Shown: piece by piece, positions 2,705-42,918 of the stretch
Layout: every line of letters starts with the position of its first letter
How positions within the stretch are numbered: position 1 is the stretch's first letter
NCBI GenBank assembly: GCA_017617125.1
Contig: JAFZWY010000008.1
Location: 153,858 to 217,857 of the forward strand
Direction: 5' to 3'
From: Bacteroidales bacterium
GTDB lineage: Bacteria; Bacteroidota; Bacteroidia; Bacteroidales; ML635J-15
Length of the DNA stretch: 64,000 nt
Made by a program: the position numbers and the translations under genes
The notes under the pieces: model-generated
What the model was told of the DNA's origin: nothing
The model's database searches: none
Seen by the model: the letters and a program-made list of their open reading frames with translations, nothing else

Positions 2705-2796
2705 TGCAAAATAGCATTTAATAACCCCCTTTTTTATAAGTTATAAATCTGTATCTTATTAGTAATAAATAAGTTGAGTGTAATTGTATTAAAAAG

Positions 2797-2884
2797 ATTC
2801 CGCTGAAATCTATATTGAATATTAGCGGAATGTGTGTTTTAAAGTATAGATTCCGCTGAAATTTGAAAAATATTTTGGCGGAAT
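2797..2884. repeat. Direct repeat copy 1 (two ATTCCGCT-N19-(A/G)GCGGAAT palindromes) upstream of the ATPase gene
   Basis: 80/88 identical to 4358-4445 by manual alignment. Confidence 0.92.
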
Positions 2885-2927
2885 GTTGAAAAATATTTTT
2901 ACCTTTGTGGCATAAAATAGAATTAGT

Positions 2928-4346
2928 ATGAATGCAATGATTGTCGGTCGAGAGTTGGAATTGAGACAGTTGGCTCGTTACTACGGGTCCAAACAGTCGG
3001 AATTTGTAGCAGTTTATGGTCGTCGCAGGGTTGGAAAAACCTTTTTGGTCAGGAATGCTTTCCGGAAAATTGATTTCCAGTATGCAGCAATGATGAATGC
3101 TTCTAGACGCGAACAGCTGGTCGGATTTGCCAATGCTTTGCGAGAACAAGGTCTTGCCGATGTCGCCGAAATTGCATCGTGGCAGGAGGCTTTTGGCGAA
3201 CTGAAAAGACTAATAGTTGCCTTGCCAAAGTCACGCAAAAAAGTCATTTTCCTTGACGAACTGCCTTGGATGGACAAAACTGATGCAGTTTTTATGTCTG
3301 CGTTCGAGCATTTCTGGAACAGTTGGGCATCGGCACGCAAGGACATTATGCTTGTAGTTTGTGGTTCTGCCACATCGTGGATGATGGACAAGCTGATAAA
3401 CAACCGCGGAGGTCTGCACAACCGAATCACATTGCACATACGTCTCGAACCGTTCACGCTCAAGGAAACAGAACTTTATCTGAAATCACGGAAATTCCGC
3501 TGGGGGCGGGCGATGATTGCCGAATGTTACATGATTTTCGGTGGCGTGCCATATTATTTAAGTCTGCTTGACCCAGCTATGAGTCTTGCAAAAAATGTAG
3601 ATTTCCTATTCTTTAGGCAGAACGCCATACTCCGAGGTGAGTTCAACAACCTTTATGCGTCGCTGTTTACAAATTCCAAGTTGTATATAGGTATTGTTGA
3701 ACTGCTTGGAACAAAGAAAAAAGGTCTTTCGCGTGACGAGATTGTCAAAGGGTTGAAGTTGGCTGATGGAGGAACATTCACGAAGGCTTTGGCTGACTTG
3801 GAAAACTGTGGTTTCATTCGTTGCTATACGCCATTTGACAAGAAAAAGAAGACCGCTTTGTTCCAACTGGTTGATTTTTACACATTGTTTTACTTGAATT
3901 TCATTTGGGAGCGCAAGATTAACGAAGAAGAATTCTGGTCGAAAAATATGCGGTCTTCATTGCGCAATGCTTGGATTGGGTATGCGTTTGAACAACTATG
4001 TCTGGCGCATGTAAGGCAGATAAAGCAAGGACTGGGCATTTCGGGAGTAATCACAAATGTATATTCGTGGCGCAGTAACAAACAAGATGGCGGTGCACAA
4101 ATCGACCTTGTCATTGACAGGAACGACAATTCCATAACGCTATGTGAGATGAAATGGACGAACAAACCTTATTCTATAACTGCCGCCTACGAGAAAAATC
4201 TCAACAACAAGGTTGAAACTTTCATTGAAGAAAACGAAACTGGCAAGTCTGTATTTCTTACAATGGTAACTATGCAGGGTGTTTTACCTAATTCTCATTC
4301 TCAAATTTTAGATAATAATTTGATATTAAACGATTTATTTGTATAA
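2928..4346 (+). CDS. AAA-family ATP-binding protein with wHTH-like middle region and C-terminal PD-(D/E)XK-like domain (ATPase_2/DUF234-like)
   Basis: Walker A GRRRVGKT, Walker B IFLDE, VCGSA, GGVPYYL, and C-terminal QIDLVI...LCEMKW. Confidence 0.85.
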   Translation: MNAMIVGRELELRQLARYYGSKQSEFVAVYGRRRVGKTFLVRNAFRKIDFQYAAMMNASRREQLVGFANALREQGLADVAEIASWQEAFGELKRLIVALPKSRKKVIFLDELPWMDKTDAVFMSAFEHFWNSWASARKDIMLVVCGSATSWMMDKLINNRGGLHNRITLHIRLEPFTLKETELYLKSRKFRWGRAMIAECYMIFGGVPYYLSLLDPAMSLAKNVDFLFFRQNAILRGEFNNLYASLFTNSKLYIGIVELLGTKKKGLSRDEIVKGLKLADGGTFTKALADLENCGFIRCYTPFDKKKKTALFQLVDFYTLFYLNFIWERKINEEEFWSKNMRSSLRNAWIGYAFEQLCLAHVRQIKQGLGISGVITNVYSWRSNKQDGGAQIDLVIDRNDNSITLCEMKWTNKPYSITAAYEKNLNNKVETFIEENETGKSVFLTMVTMQGVLPNSHSQILDNNLILNDLFV

Positions 4347-4357
4347 TATTAAAAAAG

Positions 4358-4445
4358 ATTCCGCTGAAATTCATATTGAATATCAGCGGAATGTATGTTT
4401 GGAAATATAGATTCCGCTGAAATATGAAAAATATTTTGGCGGAAT
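4358..4445. repeat. Direct repeat copy 2, just after the ATPase stop codon
   Basis: Same palindrome pair and the same 53-bp spacing as 2797-2884. Confidence 0.92.
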
Positions 4446-4457
4446 ATTTAGTTGCTG

Positions 4458-34545: not shown

Positions 34546-35481
34546 TCACCTTTTTTGTTTCCCTGTCTGTTTGCCTTTGTACATTTTTTCCATAGAATCA
34601 ATGGTTTCCTTCATGCGGTTACGTAGTGAAGTCGGTTCCATGATTTCAACCTCGTTGTTCATGGTAAGGAGTTCCTGTATCAATTCGTAGGTTGTTTTTA
34701 TGTCGTATTCGAAGATGGCGTATTTATCGTTTGACTTTGCCAGATTTTCCTTTTGCGAGCTATGTAGCGGAAGCGAGCGAAGGTAGCAGTCGCGGTGGCC
34801 GTATTGTTCGCCTTTGTATGCCTTTAGGACAACGTGCTCGACTTTTGCATTGGTAATGCTTATGCCGATTATGTTTTCGAAAGTTTCGTCGGGGGCGATG
34901 TCGGGGAACTTGTATTTTTTGTCGGTAACTTCGATTTCGTTTATTCTGTCGAGGGCGTAGATGCGGTTGCCGACCTGCGATTTGGCGTAAACATACCAGC
35001 GTTGGCGGAACAGTTTTACGCAGATGGGCTTTATCTCGAAATCGCTTTCGTGTTTTCCGAATCCCTGATACCATATATGTAGCACGGTCAGGTCGCGTAT
35101 TGCCTCGATGATAGTTGTCAGGAACTTTTGTCCCGACGGGATATTTTCGAGCAGGATACGTTTTTTCAGTTGCTGGCTATCGCATACGAAGTTGTGCAGC
35201 GACATTGAGTTTAGCAGCCAGTTTTTTGTAGAGTCGGACTTGCTGTCGTCGTAGGTGATGAAGTAGTTGTATTCACCGCATCCCTCGCATTCTATGTCGA
35301 TGCCGAAAATGTCGGCAATGTCGTTGATGTGTCGCAGGAAAGTTCGTTTGCTAAGTTCCAAACCACCGTCGCGTTCGCTGCGTTGCCAGGCTTTGTTTAT
35401 TTCCTTGAACGGAACACTGCCTTTTCTGCGTATGAAGTCAATTAGCCATACATAATTGGAAATCAATGATTTTGTATCCAT
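34546..35481 (-). CDS. WYL-domain transcriptional regulator (wHTH-WYL-WCX)
   Basis: N-terminal HTH LSKRTFLRHINDIADIFGIDIEC; WYL core KLFRQRWYV...RIYALDRI; C-terminal LRSLPLHSSQ...EPTSLR; start placed at ATG 35481 because the ORF-track start overlaps the promoter. Confidence 0.92.
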   Translation of the reverse strand: MDTKSLISNYVWLIDFIRRKGSVPFKEINKAWQRSERDGGLELSKRTFLRHINDIADIFGIDIECEGCGEYNYFITYDDSKSDSTKNWLLNSMSLHNFVCDSQQLKKRILLENIPSGQKFLTTIIEAIRDLTVLHIWYQGFGKHESDFEIKPICVKLFRQRWYVYAKSQVGNRIYALDRINEIEVTDKKYKFPDIAPDETFENIIGISITNAKVEHVVLKAYKGEQYGHRDCYLRSLPLHSSQKENLAKSNDKYAIFEYDIKTTYELIQELLTMNNEVEIMEPTSLRNRMKETIDSMEKMYKGKQTGKQKR

Positions 35482-35510
35482 GTTGCGTTTGTCTTTTTTG
35501 TTTGTTTCTG

Positions 35511-35547
35511 CAAAACTACAAAAAAGATACGACAAAAAATGGCGGAT
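35511..35547 (-). promoter_or_regulatory. WYL box + -7 box upstream of the WYL gene
   Basis: ATACGAC-AAAAAAT-GGCGGAT (35527-35547), 8 bp from TAGTTTTG (35511-35518, minus strand). Confidence 0.75.
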
Positions 35548-35571
35548 GATGGAAATAGTTTGCAAATGTCA

Positions 35572-35622
35572 TTACACATTTTATGAACCATTTTGGAGTG
35601 CAATTTACACATTTTATGAAGA
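35572..35622. repeat. Direct repeat (2 x TTACACATTTTATGAA, 33-bp period) just past the ATPase stop codon
   Basis: 47/51 identical to 37086-37136 by manual alignment. Confidence 0.92.
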
Positions 35623-35629
35623 CTTCGCC

Positions 35630-36961
35630 CTATCCATTATGCACCTCTATCCATCTCTTTAGCAGGAATGCCGTAAAATACGGGAAGGTGTAGAACTTTC
35701 CGTTGAAACCTACATTTTTGTTGCAAAGTTTTATTCCGTACTTTATGTCTGGGTACGAGTCGCTCTTTATCAGATTGTTGAGCGATACGGTAGCAGCATC
35801 CTTGGCTTTCACTTCGACAGGGACAAGACTGTTGGTGTCGCGGACGAAGAAATCCATTTCGAGCTGGGCATTTTCCTTCTTATAGTAATAAGTTGGAAGT
35901 CCCGATTTTACAAATGCTTCTGCAACAACATTCTCGTAAATTGCCCCCTTGTATATGCCAAGGTTTTTGTTTTGGCGCAGGTCGGCAAGCGAATATTCGT
36001 CGAGGCTTGCCATAAGAAGACCGTTGTCGTGGAAATAAATCTTGTACTTTGCTTCGTCGTAGTTGCCACGCAATGGCAATTCGGGGAACGACAGGCAATA
36101 GCAGATGTTGATTATGCCCGCATCGTTGAGCCAGTCAACGCAACCGATGTATTCGCGGCTTCGGGCGTGTGCGGCAACCTTGGTGACTTGGAATTTCTTG
36201 TTTTCCTTTGCCAGAAAGACAGGAATGTTGCGATACACATTCTTTATTTTTGCCTTGTCAATTCCTCGGGCATATTTGGTGATGTCGTTTTCGTAGTCGA
36301 GAAGAAGTTGCCTTTGCATTGCAAGCGTATCGCTATAGTTGCCAGAATTTATGAAATTGCTTACTATTGCAGGCATTCCGCCTACTGTTATGTATTCGAG
36401 AAACTTTTCGCGGAGCACATCCATTTCAAGTTGCGAAAACGGCGTGACTTCCACAAGATGCTGGAAAATGTTCTCTATGAGTTCGGGCGTATAACCTTTT
36501 GCCCACAGAAATTCCTCAAAATCGAGAGAATACATGGTAATGTCGGTTTTGTAGCCAACGCTTACCGAGGTTATTTCCTTGTAGTTGAGTCCCATCATCG
36601 AGCCGGAGCAAATCACATCGTACCGTCCGTCCTGCTTGAAGAACTTGAGACTAGTAGTGCAGTCGGGGTATTCCTGTACCTCGTCGAAGAAAATCAATGT
36701 ATCGTTTTCTATGAATTTGAAGTTAGGGTTTATCAGACTAATCTGCAATACGATTTCACTGGCACCGAATCCGTTTGCAAATATTTGCTTGTATTCGGGA
36801 TTAGTTACGAAGTTAATCTCAACGAACGACTTGTAGGTTTTTCCGAACTGCCGTATCGAGTATGTTTTCCCCACTTGCCTTGCACCGCGCACAATCAACG
36901 GCATTCGGTTGGGATTGTTTTTCCAGTTGAGCAGATATTTGTCTATTTTGCGTTCCATCAT
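35630..36961 (-). CDS. ATP-binding protein, AAA_14 + DUF4143-type (C-terminal PD-(D/E)XK-like)
   Basis: GARQVGKT, FFDEVQ, ICSGS, GGMP, KIYFHDNGLL, GAIYEN and EMDFF...PVEVKA motifs. Confidence 0.88.
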   Translation of the reverse strand: MMERKIDKYLLNWKNNPNRMPLIVRGARQVGKTYSIRQFGKTYKSFVEINFVTNPEYKQIFANGFGASEIVLQISLINPNFKFIENDTLIFFDEVQEYPDCTTSLKFFKQDGRYDVICSGSMMGLNYKEITSVSVGYKTDITMYSLDFEEFLWAKGYTPELIENIFQHLVEVTPFSQLEMDVLREKFLEYITVGGMPAIVSNFINSGNYSDTLAMQRQLLLDYENDITKYARGIDKAKIKNVYRNIPVFLAKENKKFQVTKVAAHARSREYIGCVDWLNDAGIINICYCLSFPELPLRGNYDEAKYKIYFHDNGLLMASLDEYSLADLRQNKNLGIYKGAIYENVVAEAFVKSGLPTYYYKKENAQLEMDFFVRDTNSLVPVEVKAKDAATVSLNNLIKSDSYPDIKYGIKLCNKNVGFNGKFYTFPYFTAFLLKRWIEVHNG

Positions 36962-36965
36962 AGCG

Positions 36966-37136
36966 TTTCACATTTTATGTACATTTTCAACCGCAAATTT
37001 ACACATTTTATGAATATCTGCAAATTTTTCTAAATCATTTATAATCAATATTCCTCACATTTTATGAAGGTTTTTAGTTGTGATTTTACATATTTTATGA
37101 ACCATTTTGGATGGTAATTTACACATTTTATGAAGA
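36966..37136. repeat. Array of five CACATTTTATGAA-type motifs upstream of the ATPase, overlapping its -7 box
   Basis: 16-mers start at 36966, 36999, 37053, 37086 and 37119 (spacings 33, 54, 33, 33); TAAATTTG box at 36994-37001 on the minus strand. Confidence 0.9.
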
Positions 37137-37146
37137 GGAGAGAATA

Positions 37147-37175
37147 AAAATCCCCGCTGGGAGGGGCGGGGAAAA
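37147..37175 (-). terminator. Probable intrinsic terminator
   Basis: CCCCGC-TGGGAGGG-GCGGGG hairpin with a T-run on the minus strand, downstream of the 37188 gene. Confidence 0.65.
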
Positions 37176-37187
37176 GTGAAAATTAAT

Positions 37188-38327
37188 TTATTGCTTCTTT
37201 GTTTCTTCGATTATCTTTTTCCCTAGTTCAATAATTTTGCTTTCAGCAAGTTTTTCCTGTATAACCAATGGAAGTTTTGTTAAACTTTGACTATCAATAT
37301 CAATTTTCAAACTTGCATAATGTCTCCAAATATTACCATGTTTTTCCGATTCTTTTAACATTGGAAACTCATTGTTTAGTATGGCTCTAAAATGATCATG
37401 CTTGTTCTCTACACTACTTTTGACTTTATTTTGAATTTCAAAAACAACTAATATATGGGGGCTCGAATCATTTCCTGGCCTTAGTATTCGTTTATAGAAA
37501 CAGGTCAACATAACATCTTTATTACTTTTGAATATATACTTAACATACTCTTCATTCTCTCCTGTTTTTTCTTTTTTGAGTTCTAATTTTTGGCTATCTA
37601 TATAATTTTTCAATACAGAGTCTTTTTTCAATGTCATAATGTCTGTAATGTATTCCTTAATAACTCTATATACATCATGAACTTTAGTAATCTTCTCTCT
37701 ATTCCCAAAAAAGAAATCGGTTTCGTTTTTACCAATCATATTTGTGTGATTTTTAACGTTTTTATAAAATTCTTGCAATAAATATATGTGATAAGGTTTC
37801 GCTTCTGGCAGATACTCATGGATATTTTTCATAATCTCATTAAGAAGTTCTAAATGCGTAATACTTTGATATCTGTCAAGATTATATTTTGACAGACCTA
37901 ACACTATTACTTCAACATTCTCATAGCCTTTTGCTTCAACACTTTCTTTATACAATTTTAAATCATTATTTAAAGTATGGTACACCTTGTTTTCTATAAC
38001 AATAGCATTACTTTTCTTTTTGTCAGTGAGTAAAATATCAATTCTTTTTTTGTCTTTTACGACATATTCTCGGTCTATTTTAAATTCTTCAAGGAAACCT
38101 TGCTCAAGTTTTGCTGTTTTTTCTAAACTTCGTATGAACAAGTCTTTCATATTGTGTTCTTCTTTGACATTAAAAAAGAAACTATATATGTCAGACCACA
38201 TATTCTCATGGTGCGTAACTCCAGTAATATCCATCAATGAACGTTGCCAACCTTTGTGTTTCGGAATATCGTCAAGTTTTAGTTTATCCAACCATTCTTG
38301 ACATTCTTTTATCTCTGTATCTGTCAT
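37188..38327 (-). CDS. PD-(D/E)XK nuclease family protein (PDDEXK_4-like)
   Basis: HENMWSD, REYVV...RIDILL...IVIENKV motif; AT-rich; start placed at ATG 38327 downstream of TATATTTG. Confidence 0.82.
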   Translation of the reverse strand: MTDTEIKECQEWLDKLKLDDIPKHKGWQRSLMDITGVTHHENMWSDIYSFFFNVKEEHNMKDLFIRSLEKTAKLEQGFLEEFKIDREYVVKDKKRIDILLTDKKKSNAIVIENKVYHTLNNDLKLYKESVEAKGYENVEVIVLGLSKYNLDRYQSITHLELLNEIMKNIHEYLPEAKPYHIYLLQEFYKNVKNHTNMIGKNETDFFFGNREKITKVHDVYRVIKEYITDIMTLKKDSVLKNYIDSQKLELKKEKTGENEEYVKYIFKSNKDVMLTCFYKRILRPGNDSSPHILVVFEIQNKVKSSVENKHDHFRAILNNEFPMLKESEKHGNIWRHYASLKIDIDSQSLTKLPLVIQEKLAESKIIELGKKIIEETKKQ

Positions 38328-38857: not shown

Positions 38858-39535
38858 TTACTTGTAATGAATTTTATAATCCATTTTAACATTTACTTCG
38901 ATATGGAAATCTCTAACATATATGAAGTCTGACAATGCAAACATAGTATGTTCAAACAAATCATGGAAAGGCATAATTAGGTGTAAATCCTTTGTCAAAT
39001 TAGTGTCAAGCCCTTCGTTCCAATTTGGTGTTTTTGTTGATATCCCGATGTAATTGTCAAAAGTTTCTTTTTCTATATTATCCAAATAAAGGCTAGGGTA
39101 TATTCCATAACTATATTCTTGATGTAGGTCATTGTCGGTTAGTGCCTCCCATAAAGTTGATTGGCTATACGCCACTTTGCTTTTTTCTCCAGATAACGGA
39201 TGTTTTTGGGGATAATTAGTATCAAACCATAGACTAGCAACAATATCACGATGTTCATAGTTGATTTTCTTGTGAATGTCGGAAACTAGTTCCCACATGT
39301 TAAGAAAAGCAGCTTTCAAAGCGTCATTAAACGATACAATATCTGACAATAATTCGTTTTCATGTTTCATCAATTCGCCATTGATAATTTGCTTGCGCCG
39401 ATTCATCGAATAATCAAGCACACAGCGCATTCGTTTAGGCTCAATATTGCCGGTGTACTTTTTTTCATACATATCGCAAATCCATTTTTCAAGTCCCTGT
39501 ATTTCTGTAGTTGTCAAAATCTTAACTATTTCCAT
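38858..39535 (-). CDS. Hypothetical protein (~225 aa)
   Basis: Long AT-rich ORF; start placed at ATG 39535, downstream of the promoter/box at 39565-39601. Confidence 0.72.
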   Translation of the reverse strand: MEIVKILTTTEIQGLEKWICDMYEKKYTGNIEPKRMRCVLDYSMNRRKQIINGELMKHENELLSDIVSFNDALKAAFLNMWELVSDIHKKINYEHRDIVASLWFDTNYPQKHPLSGEKSKVAYSQSTLWEALTDNDLHQEYSYGIYPSLYLDNIEKETFDNYIGISTKTPNWNEGLDTNLTKDLHLIMPFHDLFEHTMFALSDFIYVRDFHIEVNVKMDYKIHYK

Positions 39536-39564
39536 TTCGTTATGTAGTTTTACGTTATAGACAA

Positions 39565-39601
39565 CAAAGGAATATGCTATGTCCGCCAAATCTTGTCACA
39601 C
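39565..39601 (-). promoter_or_regulatory. Degenerate WYL box + -7-like box
   Basis: GTCCGCC-AAATCTT-GTCACAC (39581-39601), 8 bp from TTCCTTTG (39565-39572). Confidence 0.6.
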
Positions 39602-39628
39602 CTTACTTTTTTTCATCAAAAAGGTACA

Positions 39629-39656
39629 AAAAAGGCGCACAACAATGCACGCCTTA
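39629..39656 (-). terminator. Probable intrinsic terminator
   Basis: AAGGCG...CGCCTT stem followed by a T-run on the minus strand, after the 74-aa gene. Confidence 0.55.
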
Positions 39657-39680
39657 ATCAAAATCTGGAAGTTTCAGGAA

Positions 39681-39905
39681 TCAGTTGAGTTTTTCTACCA
39701 CGAAGAGGCTAGCGTTGCCGAGGGCATTAGCCTTCTTTAAATCAACTCCGTACTTTGTCATGAAAGCCTTTGCAATTTCTTCCTTTGCCTTTGGGTTGCT
39801 GAACGGAGCAACTGTCGGTGATAAAACTTCTACTGACAATCCCTTCTCAATGTGCACGCCGTTTACATTGCTCTCGTGCTTGGTTGTAATTCTTAATAAA
39901 GCCAT
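39681..39905 (-). CDS. Small Bacteroidota protein (DUF6140-like, 74 aa)
   Basis: MALLRITTK...NGVHIEKGLSVEV...AFMTKYGVDLKKAN; family recalled from memory, not searched. Confidence 0.7.
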   Translation of the reverse strand: MALLRITTKHESNVNGVHIEKGLSVEVLSPTVAPFSNPKAKEEIAKAFMTKYGVDLKKANALGNASLFVVEKLN

Positions 39906-39921
39906 AACTTAAACAATAACA

Positions 39922-39998
39922 GGACTTCTATTTTAAACATTATTGCGCTGCATTCTCCTTTTTTGCCGAAGTCCATTTAAACAGAATCAGAGAAAAAC
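39922..39998 (-). repeat. Conserved leader element copy A (GGACTTC-N39-GAAGTCC)
   Basis: Shares GACTTCTA and TGCCGAAGTCCnTTTAAACAGAnTCnGAGAAAA with 42934-43007. Confidence 0.75.
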
Positions 39999-40014
39999 AG
40001 CCCAGAATTCGGAG

Positions 40015-40051
40015 CAAACATAGAATATACGTATGCCAAAACATGTCGTAT
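40015..40051 (-). promoter_or_regulatory. WYL box + -7 box
   Basis: GTATGCC-AAAACAT-GTCGTAT (40031-40051), 8 bp from TATGTTTG (40015-40022). Confidence 0.78.
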
Positions 40052-40054
40052 GAT

Positions 40055-40438
40055 TTAAGTTTTTCCCATTTCTTCCATCACTTTCTTCTTCATTTCCTCC
40101 ATCCTTGCAAGTCGCTCGTTTGTGCGGTCGTTCTGTTTTTGGTGTGTTGGGTCGAAATGGTCGAGAAGGTCGTAGAACTCACGACGGTGGTTGGGGTAGA
40201 TGATGTGGCACAATTCGTGGAAAATCACATGTTGCTGAAACTTCGATGGCATCTTCGCCAGCGCCTTGCTTAGACTAATTTTTGCAGGAGTGCAACCATA
40301 ACAAAGCCCCCAAGTTTTCTTGTTCTTGCCAATGCGCATTATTGGGTGCGGTATATGAGGAAATTCCGCCGAAAACTTATTCCAGCAATCCTCGAAAACA
40401 GGACTAAGTATTTGATATTCCGTTTTGTTTGCTTTCAT
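40055..40438 (-). CDS. YgjP/DUF45-like zinc metallopeptidase domain protein
   Basis: KTWGLC, VIFHELCHIIYPNHRREFY (HExxH...NH...F); ATGA overlap with the upstream gene. Confidence 0.78.
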   Translation of the reverse strand: MKANKTEYQILSPVFEDCWNKFSAEFPHIPHPIMRIGKNKKTWGLCYGCTPAKISLSKALAKMPSKFQQHVIFHELCHIIYPNHRREFYDLLDHFDPTHQKQNDRTNERLARMEEMKKKVMEEMGKT

Positions 40439-41469
40439 CGCTCCGACTCCCTTTCCCATCTTATGTATTTTTGCTCGTTTGTTATCCGAAATGCATTGTC
40501 GATATTGTTTACAGCTTTTACAGCCTCGGCAAGCATATCTAGTCGCTTGTTGACTACCTCTATTGAACGGTAAGGAAGCGACAACTTAAACATTCTTGCC
40601 TTTTCGAGCTTGATATAGAGCGTAATCGACTGATTGTTTGGCGTGATGTTGTATTCGTAGCCGAGCTGTTTCATCTTTTGTTTTATTAGTGTCTTGACGC
40701 CCATTTCCTTTATCTCATGCGACTTTTTCAGTTTTTCGTACTCGTATTCCCATTGCTCGCACTCATCAATCCAAGCTGGCATAAGATTGTCAATCCTCTC
40801 TAGAAACCTCATATCAATTTCCACTTCGCGAAAACTATTACAGCAATCATTACGCGCATTGATTTTAATCATAATATCCCAGTGGTTGTTTTTTTCTACA
40901 CTAATGTTTTTTAATGATGCGTTTGCTTCTGGGAATTGTTTGTTGAAACTACTCCAGACTAAATTCTTTTTTTCGCGACACCCCATAAGTTGCACATTTA
41001 GTCTATTTGACAATATACGACCAATACTGGTACCGTTTAACACAGACTCGCGTTCTTCTTTCCTGATTTCATTTTCGTATAGAGCAGTCTGCCGAGCCAT
41101 CATATCGGCAAATTCCTTTTCCCATTCTGGCATCAGGCGGTTGGTTTCCTTCATAAATTCCACAATATTGGGGATGTCACTTATATAGAACCAGCCCTTA
41201 TCTTTTGCGCCTATGTACTTTCGTCGTCCTGAGTTGCCAATCCTAAAATCGACATTCTTCATTTCTATTAAAAAGTCTGAATATATTGTTGCTTCAGGGA
41301 AGTATTTCTTTATCGTATCTATTAGATTTTTGTTCTTAACTTCCATTTTTGGAAGGCTCGAATCATTTCCTTGCCGACCAAATAACTCCTTGGCCTTTTC
41401 CCAGTAAAACTCTCTGCGAATTTTATCTGGTTGATACACAACATTATTCACAAAATCCTTAACGTCCAT
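40435..41469 (-). CDS. Hypothetical protein with internal two-fold repeat
   Basis: Long ORF; FPEA...LMPEW and FPEA...LMPAW duplication; start placed at ATG 41469. Confidence 0.72.
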   Translation of the reverse strand: MDVKDFVNNVVYQPDKIRREFYWEKAKELFGRQGNDSSLPKMEVKNKNLIDTIKKYFPEATIYSDFLIEMKNVDFRIGNSGRRKYIGAKDKGWFYISDIPNIVEFMKETNRLMPEWEKEFADMMARQTALYENEIRKEERESVLNGTSIGRILSNRLNVQLMGCREKKNLVWSSFNKQFPEANASLKNISVEKNNHWDIMIKINARNDCCNSFREVEIDMRFLERIDNLMPAWIDECEQWEYEYEKLKKSHEIKEMGVKTLIKQKMKQLGYEYNITPNNQSITLYIKLEKARMFKLSLPYRSIEVVNKRLDMLAEAVKAVNNIDNAFRITNEQKYIRWERESER

Positions 41470-41484
41470 ATCTTTTTTTGTGGG

Positions 41485-41521
41485 CAAAGAAAAAGAAAGC
41501 CTACGCCAAAATCGGGCGTAG
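41485..41521 (-). promoter_or_regulatory. WYL box + -7-like box
   Basis: Perfect palindrome CTACGCC-AAAATCG-GGCGTAG (41501-41521), 8 bp from TTTCTTTG (41485-41492). Confidence 0.75.
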
Positions 41522-41550
41522 GCTGGGAAAATATTAATCTTTTTATACCG

Positions 41551-42918
41551 TCATTTTTTACAACAAGCGTCAATGATTTTTTGATACTCTTTCAACTTTT
41601 CAATAACCTCGTCAATATTGACAATGCCAGTACCAAACAAATTTTCTGGTTTAACAATGGCAATTGTCATATAACAACCAGCACCAAATTTTTGGGGCTT
41701 TATAATCTCTGGATGTCCCATAAGTTCTGCTGTAGAAATAAGATTATTATACCATTTCCACCTGAAGTCGGAACGTTCATCAACATTACAAGATATTTTA
41801 AAACACAATTTTTGCTTTTCAAATTGAAGATACATTTCCCCATTATCGATCTCAGTAAAATGCCACCATGCTCCCAGAAAGCCTCCATTAGGATTAGACA
41901 CATATCCCCAACTGTTTAACCCTAGACGTAGATCCAAATCCATGTAAAAGCCTTGCCAAGCATCCCAATCCCAATTTTCCACGGACTGATTTCTATAACT
42001 CTGAGTTTCTTCTTCTATACATTTAAGATTTGTTAGGTAACTTGAAATGATTGTATTATTACCATGATACATTTTAAGACAATTGATTATATCTACTCTT
42101 GACACTGTCTTGTAGCCAATCTGTATTATTCCTTGTAATACAGATAACGGTTCATTACCAGTTTTTACATATGCATAATACAATTTATTTCTTTTCCCTT
42201 CATACTCTTTTTCAACAATTTTCTTGTATCTTTCAAGCTGATTGTCGTGAATTGAAGAATTTGTTTTATCCTCAATAACAAGGAATGTATCATCATTGAT
42301 TTCAACCCATATATCAATATTATTCCATTGTCGTCCAACGTTTATTGAGCTTATGGCATAATCTTTTTCTCCCAATAACATTCTGACAAAATTTTGTGCG
42401 ACAGAAAACATTTCCTCATCTTTGTCTTTATACTTTGGATCTGCCCATTTGATAATCCATGCAAATACAGCATCCTGACTTAGTTCCGATGTTGCAAAAT
42501 CAAAAATATTTGGAATGTCATCAGATGCTTTTTGTATGTTTCCTTTTGTTAACAAGCGTCTAAGTTCATTAAGCCTAGGTTCAAACATTTCCATATTTTC
42601 ATTCAAAAAATCTCTTAAACCATCTGTGCTTTCTGAATCCTGAATAAATTCATTCAATTTACTTTCTTTGCCGTTTATTGTTGCTATTATTAAGGTTGCC
42701 AAATCTAATACTCGCCAAATAGGCATTTCTTCGCTTTGTCTAGACCAGCGGTCTCCACTATGTCGCCAGATTTTAGCAGAATAATCTTCTTCATTCCATG
42801 AGGCATGGCCCAATGACAAAAATTTGGCATCACCTGCATATGCATCGTTTTCTTCGTAATCAACACTAATTATTGGTTTATGTGATAACCACCATGGAGC
42901 AATCTTTTCTTTTTTCAT
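41551..42918 (-). CDS. DUF6530-like N-terminal domain fused to a PD-(D/E)XK (PDDEXK_4-like) nuclease
   Basis: N-terminal HKPI...SAKIWRHSGDRWSRQSEEMPIWRVLDLA; C-terminal PNIFDFATSELSQDA...IDIWVEIN...VIEDKT...QLERY. Confidence 0.75.
   Translation of the reverse strand: MKKEKIAPWWLSHKPIISVDYEENDAYAGDAKFLSLGHASWNEEDYSAKIWRHSGDRWSRQSEEMPIWRVLDLATLIIATINGKESKLNEFIQDSESTDGLRDFLNENMEMFEPRLNELRRLLTKGNIQKASDDIPNIFDFATSELSQDAVFAWIIKWADPKYKDKDEEMFSVAQNFVRMLLGEKDYAISSINVGRQWNNIDIWVEINDDTFLVIEDKTNSSIHDNQLERYKKIVEKEYEGKRNKLYYAYVKTGNEPLSVLQGIIQIGYKTVSRVDIINCLKMYHGNNTIISSYLTNLKCIEEETQSYRNQSVENWDWDAWQGFYMDLDLRLGLNSWGYVSNPNGGFLGAWWHFTEIDNGEMYLQFEKQKLCFKISCNVDERSDFRWKWYNNLISTAELMGHPEIIKPQKFGAGCYMTIAIVKPENLFGTGIVNIDEVIEKLKEYQKIIDACCKK

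What the first reader, a model, noticed from the sequence alone, without database searches (positions are those of the whole stretch)
35572..37136. Second, divergent ATPase-nuclease gene (AAA_14/DUF4143) with its own 33-bp-phased flanking repeats
SEEN: a TTACACATTTTATGAA-type motif occurs at 35572 and 35605 (just past the stop codon) and at 36966, 36999, 37053, 37086 and 37119 (upstream). The spacing is 33 bp each time except one 54-bp gap. The blocks 35572-35622 and 37086-37136 are 47/51 identical, and one motif overlaps the -7 box (36994-37001). The cassette separates the WYL gene from the rest of its putative regulon, as an insertion would. INFERENCE: this is the same architecture as the 2928-4346 gene but with a different motif. 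Two cases in 64 kb suggest a general class of AAA-wHTH-nuclease elements, each with cognate iteron-like ends that also serve as an autorepression operator.
Basis: partly seen in the sequence, partly recalled or inferred. Interest (0 to 1): 0.8.

Follow-up and report, generated by a model that had tools for sequence, protein, structure and literature searches.

The report
ATPase-nuclease gene with its own repeat array
A very common but uncharacterised bacterial "defence-candidate" gene travels together with its own array of evenly spaced DNA repeats, which are probably the protein's docking and control site and also act as handles by which the gene is gained or lost.

Summary
Seven copies of the TTACACATTTTATGAA-type motif flank the gene at 35630-36961 (- strand): five upstream and two downstream, spaced 33 bp apart with one 54-bp gap.

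The gene encodes AAA_14 + DUF4143, which PADLOC lists as phage-defence candidate PDC-S01.

The pattern is general:
- 10 of 16 DUF4143 genes in this genome have upstream repeats 32-33 bp apart, against 24 of 1337 control ORFs. Each gene has its own motif.
- 64 of 80 orthologues from several phyla keep a GGAWWWTGTGA-type core at 32-33 bp, close to the start codon.

The model shows an ORC/Cdc6-like AAA+ domain, a winged helix and an intact PD-(D/E)XK site. One recognition-helix residue tracks one repeat base, but this is not significant after tree control.

Only about 1.6 kb (terminator, array, gene, partial array copy) is shared with a 98%-identical orthologue in another genome. Three gene-less alleles keep a single motif or a three-unit orphan array.

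Best reading: the array is the protein's own operator, and recombination between arrays gains or loses the gene. Self-mobilisation is not shown.

This scan has reported the same principle before on other DNA, with a 23-bp period. My literature searches found no published description.

The parts
37151..37172 (-). Intrinsic-terminator hairpin (TCCCCGCCCCTCCCAGCGGGGA plus a T-tract) just after the upstream PDDEXK_4 gene. It marks the left edge of the DNA shared with other genomes; homology starts at about 37175.
   Evidence: Terminator scan; blastn boundary; alignment A2; the same hairpin occurs in G036, G027 and L154.
37053..37134 (-). Distal repeat units 1-3 (motif TTCATAAAATGTG on the gene strand at 37134..37119, 37101..37086 and 37068..37053), 33 bp apart.
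36994..37024 (-). Predicted promoter: TTTG (-33 type) at 37024..37021, a 19-nt spacer filled by repeat unit 4 (37014..36999), and the -7 box TAAATTTG at 37001..36994.
   Evidence: Read directly. The Bacteroidetes promoter consensus is recalled, not tested here.
36966..36981 (-). Repeat unit 5 (TACATAAAATGTGAAA), between the -7 box and the ATG, so probably at the transcript start or in the 5' UTR.
35630..36961 (-). AAA_14 + DUF4143 gene (443 aa; PADLOC PDC-S01). Domains in the model: AAA+ core 1-147, lid 148-230, winged helix 231-312, PD-(D/E)XK nuclease 334-443.
35572..35622 (-). Downstream block of two repeat units (35620..35605 and 35587..35572), a 47/51 copy of upstream units 1-2. It marks the right edge of the shared DNA (about 35575) and lies about 90-150 bp upstream of the WYL gene's ATG.

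Best explanation
The unit is about 1.6 kb (window ~35575-37175). It consists of a terminator hairpin, five direct repeats, one gene for an AAA+ ATPase / winged-helix / PD-(D/E)XK nuclease protein (PDC-S01 family), and a two-unit partial copy of the array.

The repeats are the gene's own cis-element. Inferred: protomers of the encoded protein bind one repeat each through the winged helix. Sites 32-33 bp apart are about three helical turns apart and so lie on one face of the DNA. Nucleotide-dependent AAA+ contacts would make binding cooperative. Units 4 and 5 sit in the promoter spacer and at the transcript start, so occupancy most likely represses the gene (autoregulation).

Shown: array plus gene is the module that is inherited and horizontally exchanged, while the surrounding genes differ.

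Shown as alleles, with direction and enzyme inferred: the array also acts as a recombination handle. Downstream copies of the array arise from the upstream array. Recombination between flanking arrays removes or inserts the gene and leaves a solo motif or an orphan array. Host homologous recombination is sufficient for this; a role for the encoded nuclease is possible but not shown.

The protein's cellular role (candidate anti-phage nuclease) is inferred only from family membership.
For: (1) Enrichment and phasing in the own genome.
- 10 of 16 DUF4143 genes have upstream 12-mers (up to 1 mismatch) 32 or 33 bp apart. Two more are spaced at 29 bp and one has four copies at 22 bp.
- The same measure gives 24 of 1337 control ORFs. 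Three of those 24 are themselves caused by such arrays: the WYL gene, an AAA_14 gene on C5, and that gene's divergent neighbour.
- Three or more copies occur in 5 of 16 DUF4143 genes against 38 of 1337 controls.

(2) Conservation.
- 18 of 29 homologue loci in relatives and 64 of 80 orthologues at 56-69% aa identity keep 2-5 units at 31-34 bp.
- The orthologues come from Bacteroidales, Spirochaetia, Fibrobacter and Firmicutes, including the isolates Roseburia inulinivorans DSM 16841 and Lachnospira intestinalis.
- In 60 aligned loci the core A....TGTG(A) is near-invariant. The proximal core lies about 15-19 or 47-51 nt before the ATG.
- Paralogous subfamilies have unrelated motifs.

(3) The only constant partner of the array is the gene.
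- Of 15 pairs at 87% DNA identity or more, 14 share only the gene plus 50-350 bp upstream and 0-180 bp downstream.
- No WYL or PDDEXK_4 homologue was found in the 124 other loci.

(4) The protein looks like a sequence-reading AAA+ protein.
- The model has pLDDT 89 and pTM 0.89.
- The best folds are the archaeal AAA+ proteins 2qen and 2fna, CED-4, and ORC/Cdc6, including 2qby bound to origin DNA.
- Walker A, Walker B and D370/E383/K385 are invariant in 75 sequences.

(5) Covariation.
- The base after TGTGA against residue 270 at the start of helix 268-280: E with T 32, D with A 17, E with A 5, D with T 0.
- The winged helix holds 17 of 54 variable columns with z >= 8, against 28 of 224 elsewhere.

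(6) Array-mediated gain or loss.
- G000 and G036 share only ~35575-37175 at 93%.
- Their downstream blocks copy different registers of the upstream array: units 1-2 in G000 and units 2-3 in G036.
- L154 has the terminator, R1-R2-R3 and G036's right flank with no gene.
- G027 has the terminator and one motif.
- A contig of X6 joins 35570 to 37124.
- Up/down exact words of 17 nt or more occur in 6 of 16 DUF4143 genes against 10 of 1315 controls.
Against: - No binding data exist.
- The covariation is not significant once relatedness is controlled. Residue 270 changes only 5 times on the tree, which gives 4 independent pairs. About 3.8 of them go the same way and none go the opposite way; sign test p = 0.125.
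- The motif alignment was anchored on TGTG by my own scoring, which inflates the apparent invariance of that core.
- 16 of 80 orthologues and 11 of 29 genus homologues show no 31-34-bp array by my criterion. Some of these may be start-codon miscalls.
- For pairs at only 80-83% identity, the blastn boundaries may simply reflect decay of intergenic DNA.
- The sign of regulation (repression or activation) is inferred from position alone.
- The gene-less alleles cannot tell deletion from pre-insertion sites. X6 and G027 carry about 15-18 nt after the solo motif that the G000 allele lacks, so they are not simple excision products of the G000 form.
- The X6 joint rests on one contig with a 36-nt side at a 90% likeness threshold.
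Confidence: 0.65

Rival explanations
1. Self-mobilising element. The repeats are iteron-like ends recognised by the encoded ATPase-nuclease, which itself excises and integrates the cassette. This would make it a new kind of single-gene mobile element.
For: - The same 1.6-kb unit lies in different contexts.
- Gene-less alleles break exactly at the repeats.
- The downstream block has a different register in G000 and G036, which implies repeated array-to-array exchange.
- The nuclease triad is invariant and the P-loop is intact.
- Distribution is patchy and crosses phyla, with relatives on 33 plasmid records.
- Flanking duplications recur in several subfamilies: L042-L045 and L052 have 3 units upstream and 3 downstream.
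Against: - Most orthologues have repeats on one side only. The 86% orthologue in G028 has no downstream copy.
- There are no inverted termini and no target-site duplication.
- Each cassette and motif is single-copy in its genome. The motif is private to this locus, and the closest own-genome pair is only 80% identical.
- No recombinase-like fold was found.
- Repeats of 50-100 bp are enough for host RecA-type recombination.
Confidence: 0.12
2. The repeats are operators for another regulator. The candidates are the neighbouring WYL/WCX protein or a host global factor. The ATPase gene would then simply be a regulated target.
For: - Two units lie upstream of the WYL gene.
- WYL regulators of defence islands are known to bind their own promoters (recalled).
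Against: - No WYL homologue lies within 1.5-4 kb of any of the 124 other array-bearing or homologous loci.
- G036 has the identical array next to a convergent DUF2201 gene.
- The motif differs for each paralogue within one genome, which a single host factor cannot explain.
- The motif is conserved across phyla together with the gene.
Confidence: 0.05
3. The array is a conserved promoter or DNA-structure element, for example curved AT-rich DNA or UP-like phasing. It would have no dedicated binding protein, and the downstream copies would be neutral duplication scars.
For: - The units are AT-rich and phased at about three helical turns.
- The proximal unit always abuts the -7 box in Bacteroidales.
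Against: - A specific 10-12-nt core, including G/C positions, is conserved across phyla that have different promoter types.
- Paralogues differ completely in motif but not in phasing.
- Curvature alone would not need gene-specific sequence.
Confidence: 0.1

Closest known systems
PADLOC phage-defence candidate PDC-S01 (COG1373; Pfam AAA_14 PF13173 + DUF4143 PF13635)
   Same: - The protein matches PDC-S01 HMMs over its full length (E 2e-152) and both Pfam domains.
- The family is described as an ATPase fused to a PD-(D/E)XK domain, is very abundant, and is experimentally untested (passages of PMC12988326 and PMC13356809).
   Different: The passages and main text I read say nothing about a cis-element:
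- 'direct repeat' occurs 0 times in the main text of 10.1101/2024.01.29.577857.
- DUF4143 appears in only 4 papers of the library.
Supplements were closed. The phased array, its motif conservation and the orphan arrays are additions to what is described.
Archaeal Orc1/Cdc6 initiators on origin recognition boxes (e.g. PDB 2qby), and the archaeal AAA+ ATPases 2qen and 2fna
   Same: - The fold is the same: an AAA+ domain followed by a C-terminal winged helix (Foldseek E 1e-8 to 3e-6).
- Several copies of a short box are read by a winged helix (recalled for Orc1/Cdc6).
   Different: - Sequence identity is only 10-14%.
- This protein has an extra PD-(D/E)XK domain.
- There are 17 paralogues per genome, each with a private motif directly over its own promoter.
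- There is no sign of an origin of replication.
Plasmid iterons with their Rep initiators, and STAND-type regulators such as MalT on arrays of MalT boxes (recalled)
   Same: - Phased direct repeats next to the gene of the protein presumed to bind them.
- Autoregulation through sites that overlap the promoter.
- Cooperative binding, nucleotide-dependent in MalT.
   Different: - The period is 32-33 bp rather than about 22 bp.
- The loci are chromosomal and single-gene, with no replicon.
- The protein family is different and carries a nuclease domain.
Earlier notes of this scan on other genomes (e1-2150035, e1-1461378, e1-782104)
   Same: The principle is the same: PDC-S01 genes carry a phased repeat array over their promoter, read as a self-operator, and orphan arrays remain after gene loss.
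   Different: - Those cases had a 23-bp period; this clade has 32-33 bp. The own genome also has arrays at 22 and 29 bp.
- This case adds register-shifted downstream copies and three gene-less alleles of one cassette.

Membership tests
PDC-S01 / COG1373 (AAA_14 + DUF4143) | AAA_14 and DUF4143 domains above the Pfam cut-offs, in this order | tested here: met
   AAA_14 scores 86.7 bits (cut-off 27) at residues 19-152. DUF4143 scores 110.7 bits (cut-off 28.1) at residues 224-386.
PDC-S01 / COG1373 (AAA_14 + DUF4143) | Full-length match to a PADLOC PDC-S01 model | tested here: met
   PDLC04786, E 2.1e-152, protein residues 1-437 on model positions 1-435 of 439.
PDC-S01 / COG1373 (AAA_14 + DUF4143) | Intact P-loop and PD-(D/E)XK catalytic residues | tested here: met
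   G26xRQxGKT33, D93-E94 and D370...E383-x-K385 are invariant in 75 aligned sequences.
PDC-S01 / COG1373 (AAA_14 + DUF4143) | Protection against phage | not testable with these tools
Iteron / Rep replication module | Phased direct repeats adjacent to the gene of the presumed binding protein | tested here: met
   Five units at 33, 33, 54 and 33 bp lie upstream of the gene.
Iteron / Rep replication module | Part of an autonomous replicon or origin | tested here: not met
   The unit sits on a 248-kb contig of the assembly (contig length), as a single gene among unrelated neighbours. The same genome has 17 paralogous matches. No Rep-family domain was found.
Insertion sequence / transposon | Terminal inverted repeats, target-site duplication, a transposase or recombinase, and multiple like copies | tested here: not met
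   - Only direct repeats were found; the two inverted pairs are short and lie inside or across the gene.
- The junctions in alignments A2-A4 show no duplication of flank sequence.
- The fold is ORC/STAND-like.
- The closest own-genome pair is 80% identical.
WYL (BrxR/CapW-like) regulated defence locus, with the repeats as WYL operator | Conserved linkage of the repeat array with a WYL regulator gene | tested here: not met
   tblastn with the WYL protein hits only the window's own locus among 125 loci. G036 and L154 carry the array without a WYL gene.
ORC/Cdc6-type AAA+ winged-helix DNA-binding proteins | AAA+ core followed by a winged helix | tested here: met
   Model secondary structure; Foldseek hits to 2qby_A, 1w5t_A and ORC subunits at probability 1.00. 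The TM-scores are low (0.2-0.4), so this shows the same architecture rather than close kinship.
ORC/Cdc6-type AAA+ winged-helix DNA-binding proteins | Sequence-specific binding of repeated boxes | tested here: inconclusive
   The residue-270 / base covariation is strong in raw counts, but p = 0.125 on independent pairs.

The most novel reading that the evidence does not exclude
PDC-S01 genes would be autonomous, integrase-free gene cassettes. The encoded ATPase-nuclease assembles on its own phased repeats and uses them both as an operator and as recombination sites. The [array + gene] unit can then leave as a circle and re-enter at any orphan array or solo motif left in defence islands. This would resemble an integron without an integrase, and it would explain why this family is among the most abundant and patchily distributed genes of prokaryotes. 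Register-shifted downstream arrays and orphan arrays would be the footprints of this cycle.
Probability: 0.12. Interest if true: 0.9.

Novelty: new variant of a known kind. Interest (0 to 1): 0.65.

Why it matters
PDC-S01 is reported as the fourth most common defence candidate across prokaryotes and the most frequent single locus in rumen genomes (passages of PMC12988326 and PMC13356809). No function or mechanism is known for it.

A conserved, gene-specific, phased repeat array gives the family a concrete and cheap entry point:
- a predicted DNA ligand for every member;
- a testable autoregulatory circuit;
- a way to recognise lost copies through orphan arrays.

It also bears on whether these genes are immune genes at all, or semi-selfish cassettes. 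The array-to-array recombination seen here offers one explanation of how single genes without a recombinase are shuffled between defence islands.

Tried and rejected
- Homodimer test. Complex prediction with two copies plus ATP returned 'no answer' (score 0.00). It says nothing either way.
- RNA evidence. The look-up of sequencing runs listed no RNA holder, so there are no expression or transcript-start data.
- Rfam. A scan of 35300-37400 gave only a sub-threshold chance hit. An RNA-family explanation was dropped.
- CRISPR-like reading. I considered it from memory and dropped it, because the 16-nt units and their spacers are conserved between units and between genomes.
- Solved structures by sequence: 0 hits.
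- WYL protein search in relatives. The search with coordinates 34546-35482 failed on frame. I replaced it with local tblastn using 34546-35481.
- Genome-wide 12-mer counts for each paralogue's motif were swamped by AT-rich chance hits. They could not test for regulons or solo sites.
- The one-mismatch motif copy at C1:27068 was not pursued.
- Pattern scan of metagenome contigs for terminator plus motif: one stretch only.
- Literature. I searched for DUF4143; PDC-S01, COG1373 and AAA_14; DUF234, COG1672, PDC-S27 and Hma-embedded; and PABY2304, SSO1545, 2QEN and 2FNA. No paper that I opened describes upstream repeats. Supplements are closed, so tables there may hold relevant details.
Full report
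**1. Observation**

The motif TTACACATTTTATGAA (up to 3 mismatches) occurs seven times in the window. All seven are on the + strand, at the coordinates given. Shuffles give a mean of 1.9 matches, and 0 of 100 shuffles reach 7.

The start-to-start steps are 33, 33, 54, 33 and 33 bp. The blocks 35572-35622 and 37086-37136 are 92% identical over 51 nt.

Across the whole 2.88-Mb assembly the motif is private to this locus. At up to 2 mismatches, six hits lie here. The 7 scattered singles elsewhere equal the 7 hits of the reversed control pattern.

The gene between the repeats, 35630-36961 on the - strand, encodes 443 aa with AAA_14 and DUF4143. It matches PADLOC's phage-defence candidate PDC-S01 over its full length (E 2e-152).

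On the gene strand the layout is:
- a terminator hairpin at 37172..37151;
- units 1-3;
- a 54-bp step holding a TTTG at 37024..37021;
- unit 4, which fills the 19-nt spacer;
- TAAATTTG at 37001..36994;
- unit 5;
- the ATG at 36961;
- the stop codon at 35630-35632;
- two more units.

The promoter consensus used for this reading is recalled and was not tested.

**2. Is it special to this gene family?**

I laid the genome and compared the 16 DUF4143 genes with all ORFs of at least 250 aa.

| Measure | DUF4143 genes | Control ORFs |
|---|---|---|
| Upstream 12-mers (up to 1 mismatch) 32-33 bp apart | 10 of 16 | 24 of 1337 |
| Three or more copies | 5 of 16 | 38 of 1337 |
| Exact word of 17 nt or more shared by the 250-nt upstream and downstream flanks | 6 of 16 | 10 of 1315 |

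Two further DUF4143 genes have repeats 29 bp apart, and one has four copies 22 bp apart.

Three of the 24 control hits are themselves caused by such arrays: the WYL gene, an AAA_14 gene on contig C5 and that gene's divergent neighbour. The C5 gene has units spaced 33, 51 and 33 bp.

Each gene has a different motif.

The window's other ATPase gene, 2928-4346 (ATPase_2/DUF234, PDC-S27), is flanked by 97-nt direct repeats that are 91% identical.

**3. Relatives**

I searched 101 related genomes with the protein.
- Close orthologues exist only in G036 (98% aa), G028 (86%, cut by a contig end) and G083 (62%, a different family).
- All other matches are 42% identical or less.
- 18 of 29 homologue loci show 2-7 upstream units at 32-33 bp, with motifs that differ by subfamily.

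A scan of one genome per species found 593 relatives. The best 80 (56-69% identity) carry record titles from Bacteroidales, Spirochaetia, Fibrobacter, Clostridia, Bacilli and Negativicutes. Most are MAGs, but some are isolates.
- 64 of these 80 have units at 31-34 bp.
- They share a core of the type GGAWWWTGTGA.
- The proximal copy lies about 15-19 or 47-51 nt before the ATG.
- In 60 aligned loci the A....TGTG positions are near-invariant. My alignment was anchored on TGTG, which favours this result.

An intergenic element that keeps its sequence, period and position across phyla with different promoter types is under selection and belongs to the gene.

**4. Who binds it?**

The array's only constant partner is the gene.
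- Of the 15 pairs of loci at 87% DNA identity or more, 14 share only the gene, 50-350 bp upstream and 0-180 bp downstream.
- No homologue of the WYL or PDDEXK_4 neighbours occurs in the 124 other loci.

The AlphaFold model (pLDDT 89, pTM 0.89) has four parts:
- an AAA+ core;
- a lid;
- a winged helix, with helix 268-280 and a wing at 284-310;
- a PD-(D/E)XK domain.

Foldseek's best matches are the archaeal AAA+ ATPases 2qen and 2fna, CED-4, and ORC/Cdc6, including Orc1/Cdc6 on origin DNA. Walker A, Walker B and D370/E383/K385 are invariant in 75 sequences.

The strongest protein-DNA covariation of all column pairs links the base after TGTGA with residue 270. The counts are E with T 32, D with A 17, E with A 5 and D with T 0. 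The winged helix is enriched in covarying columns: 17 of 54 against 28 of 224 elsewhere.

On a tree built without those columns, residue 270 changes only five times. That gives four independent pairs. About 3.8 go the same way and none go the opposite way (p = 0.125). The result is suggestive, not significant.

**5. Cassette boundaries and gene-less alleles**

G000 and G036 share 93% DNA identity only over window ~35575-37175. That stretch holds the terminator, the five units, the gene and the two downstream units.

Both cassettes sit after a PDDEXK_4 gene, but those two PDDEXK_4 genes are only 27% identical. An orf350-like gene lies further upstream in both genomes. The right flanks are unrelated: a WYL gene in G000 and a convergent DUF2201 gene in G036.

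The downstream block copies units 1-2 in G000 and units 2-3 in G036. The downstream copy has therefore been re-templated from the upstream array at least once since the two diverged.

Three alleles lack the gene:
- **G027.** It has the PDDEXK_4 orthologue (71% aa), the same terminator and one motif. After that the sequence is unrelated.
- **A contig of run X6, from another study.** It joins 35570 to 37124, with 18 other letters between. The WYL upstream region therefore abuts the terminator and a partial motif. The same run also holds the cassette, ending at 37173-37175 in another context.
- **Metagenome contig L154.** It carries a McrBC-family gene, the same terminator, units R1-R2-R3 and then G036's right flank. 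There is no ATPase gene. This is exactly the product, or the substrate, of recombination between G036-type flanking arrays.

Other subfamilies show full duplications of the array. L042-L045 and L052 each have three units upstream and three downstream.

Against a general 'two ends' model:
- only 6 of 78 cross-phylum loci share a long word between their flanks, and only 2-3 of those words contain the motif;
- the G028 orthologue has no downstream copy.

**6. Interpretation**

*Shown:*
- The array is a conserved, gene-specific, phased element.
- Array plus gene is the exchanged module.
- Alleles with and without the gene break at the repeats.

*Inferred:*
- The protein's winged helix reads the units.
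- AAA+ contacts give cooperative binding on one face of the DNA.
- Units 4-5 confer autorepression.
- Array-to-array recombination, for which host recombination is sufficient, adds or removes the gene.

Self-mobilisation by the encoded nuclease remains possible but has no direct support. There are no inverted ends, no target duplication and no recombinase fold. The own genome also shows no recent copies: its closest pair is 80% identical.

**7. Literature and earlier notes**

- DUF4143 occurs in four papers of the library. The passages I read call it a PD-(D/E)XK or REase domain of unknown function.
- Passages of PMC12988326 and PMC13356809 describe PDC-S01 as very abundant and untested.
- The main text of the preprint that defined the PDCs never uses 'direct repeat'.
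- Supplements were closed.
- This scan has already noted the same principle on other DNA, with a 23-bp period (e1-2150035, e1-1461378, e1-782104). This case adds the 32-33-bp clade, the register-shifted downstream copies and the three gene-less alleles.

Noticed in passing
window 2791-2887 and 4352-4448: 97-nt direct repeats (91% identical) flank the ATPase_2/DUF234 (PDC-S27) gene at 2928-4346. Each copy holds internal inverted ATTCCGC...GCGGAAT pairs, so a second ATPase family shows the same array-gene-array layout.
   Followed up: partly
window 38858-42918 (- strand): Genes upstream of the cassette are orf243, orf350 (neither has a Pfam hit) and a DUF6530+PDDEXK_4 protein. orf350 recurs upstream of the PDDEXK_4 gene in G036 (45% and 36%) and in G027 (94% and 84%, in two pieces). 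This may be a multi-gene defence-type system with very divergent alleles.
   Followed up: partly
G000:C5:23878-25122 (L027) and C5:25489-28470 (L028): An AAA_14-only ATPase gene with four units spaced 33, 51 and 33 bp lies divergent to a Type ISP restriction-modification gene.
   Followed up: partly
G000: C45:16996-17949, C44:200-1738, C32:113125-114120, C1:25762-27045: Four housekeeping genes also have 12-mers 33 bp apart upstream: a transketolase subunit, a class II tRNA synthetase, a heptosyltransferase and a serine dehydratase. No AAA_14 gene is adjacent. Unexplained.
   Followed up: no
L073 8330-8560 (G027): The intergenic stretch after the solo motif holds four GACCTC-N3-5-GAGGTC-type palindromes, an unrelated repeat family.
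   Followed up: no
L072 6529-8726 (G028:C32): Two PDC-S01 genes lie in tandem. The downstream one has its own 3 x 33-bp array (AAAAGTCGCCCCGAAAAGTGTAT). The 86% orthologue of the window's gene has no downstream motif copy.
   Followed up: partly
G000:C1:27068-27083: A one-mismatch copy of the motif (TTACACATTTTGTGAA) lies 23 nt after the serine dehydratase gene. It may be chance or a solo site.
   Followed up: no
L155 1380-1440 (Ruminococcus albus 7 pRUMAL01): The 55.5% orthologue on a megaplasmid of a cultured type strain has two ATTCRCTC..TGT units 32 bp apart, upstream of a sigma-70-like promoter. This could serve as a laboratory system.
   Followed up: partly
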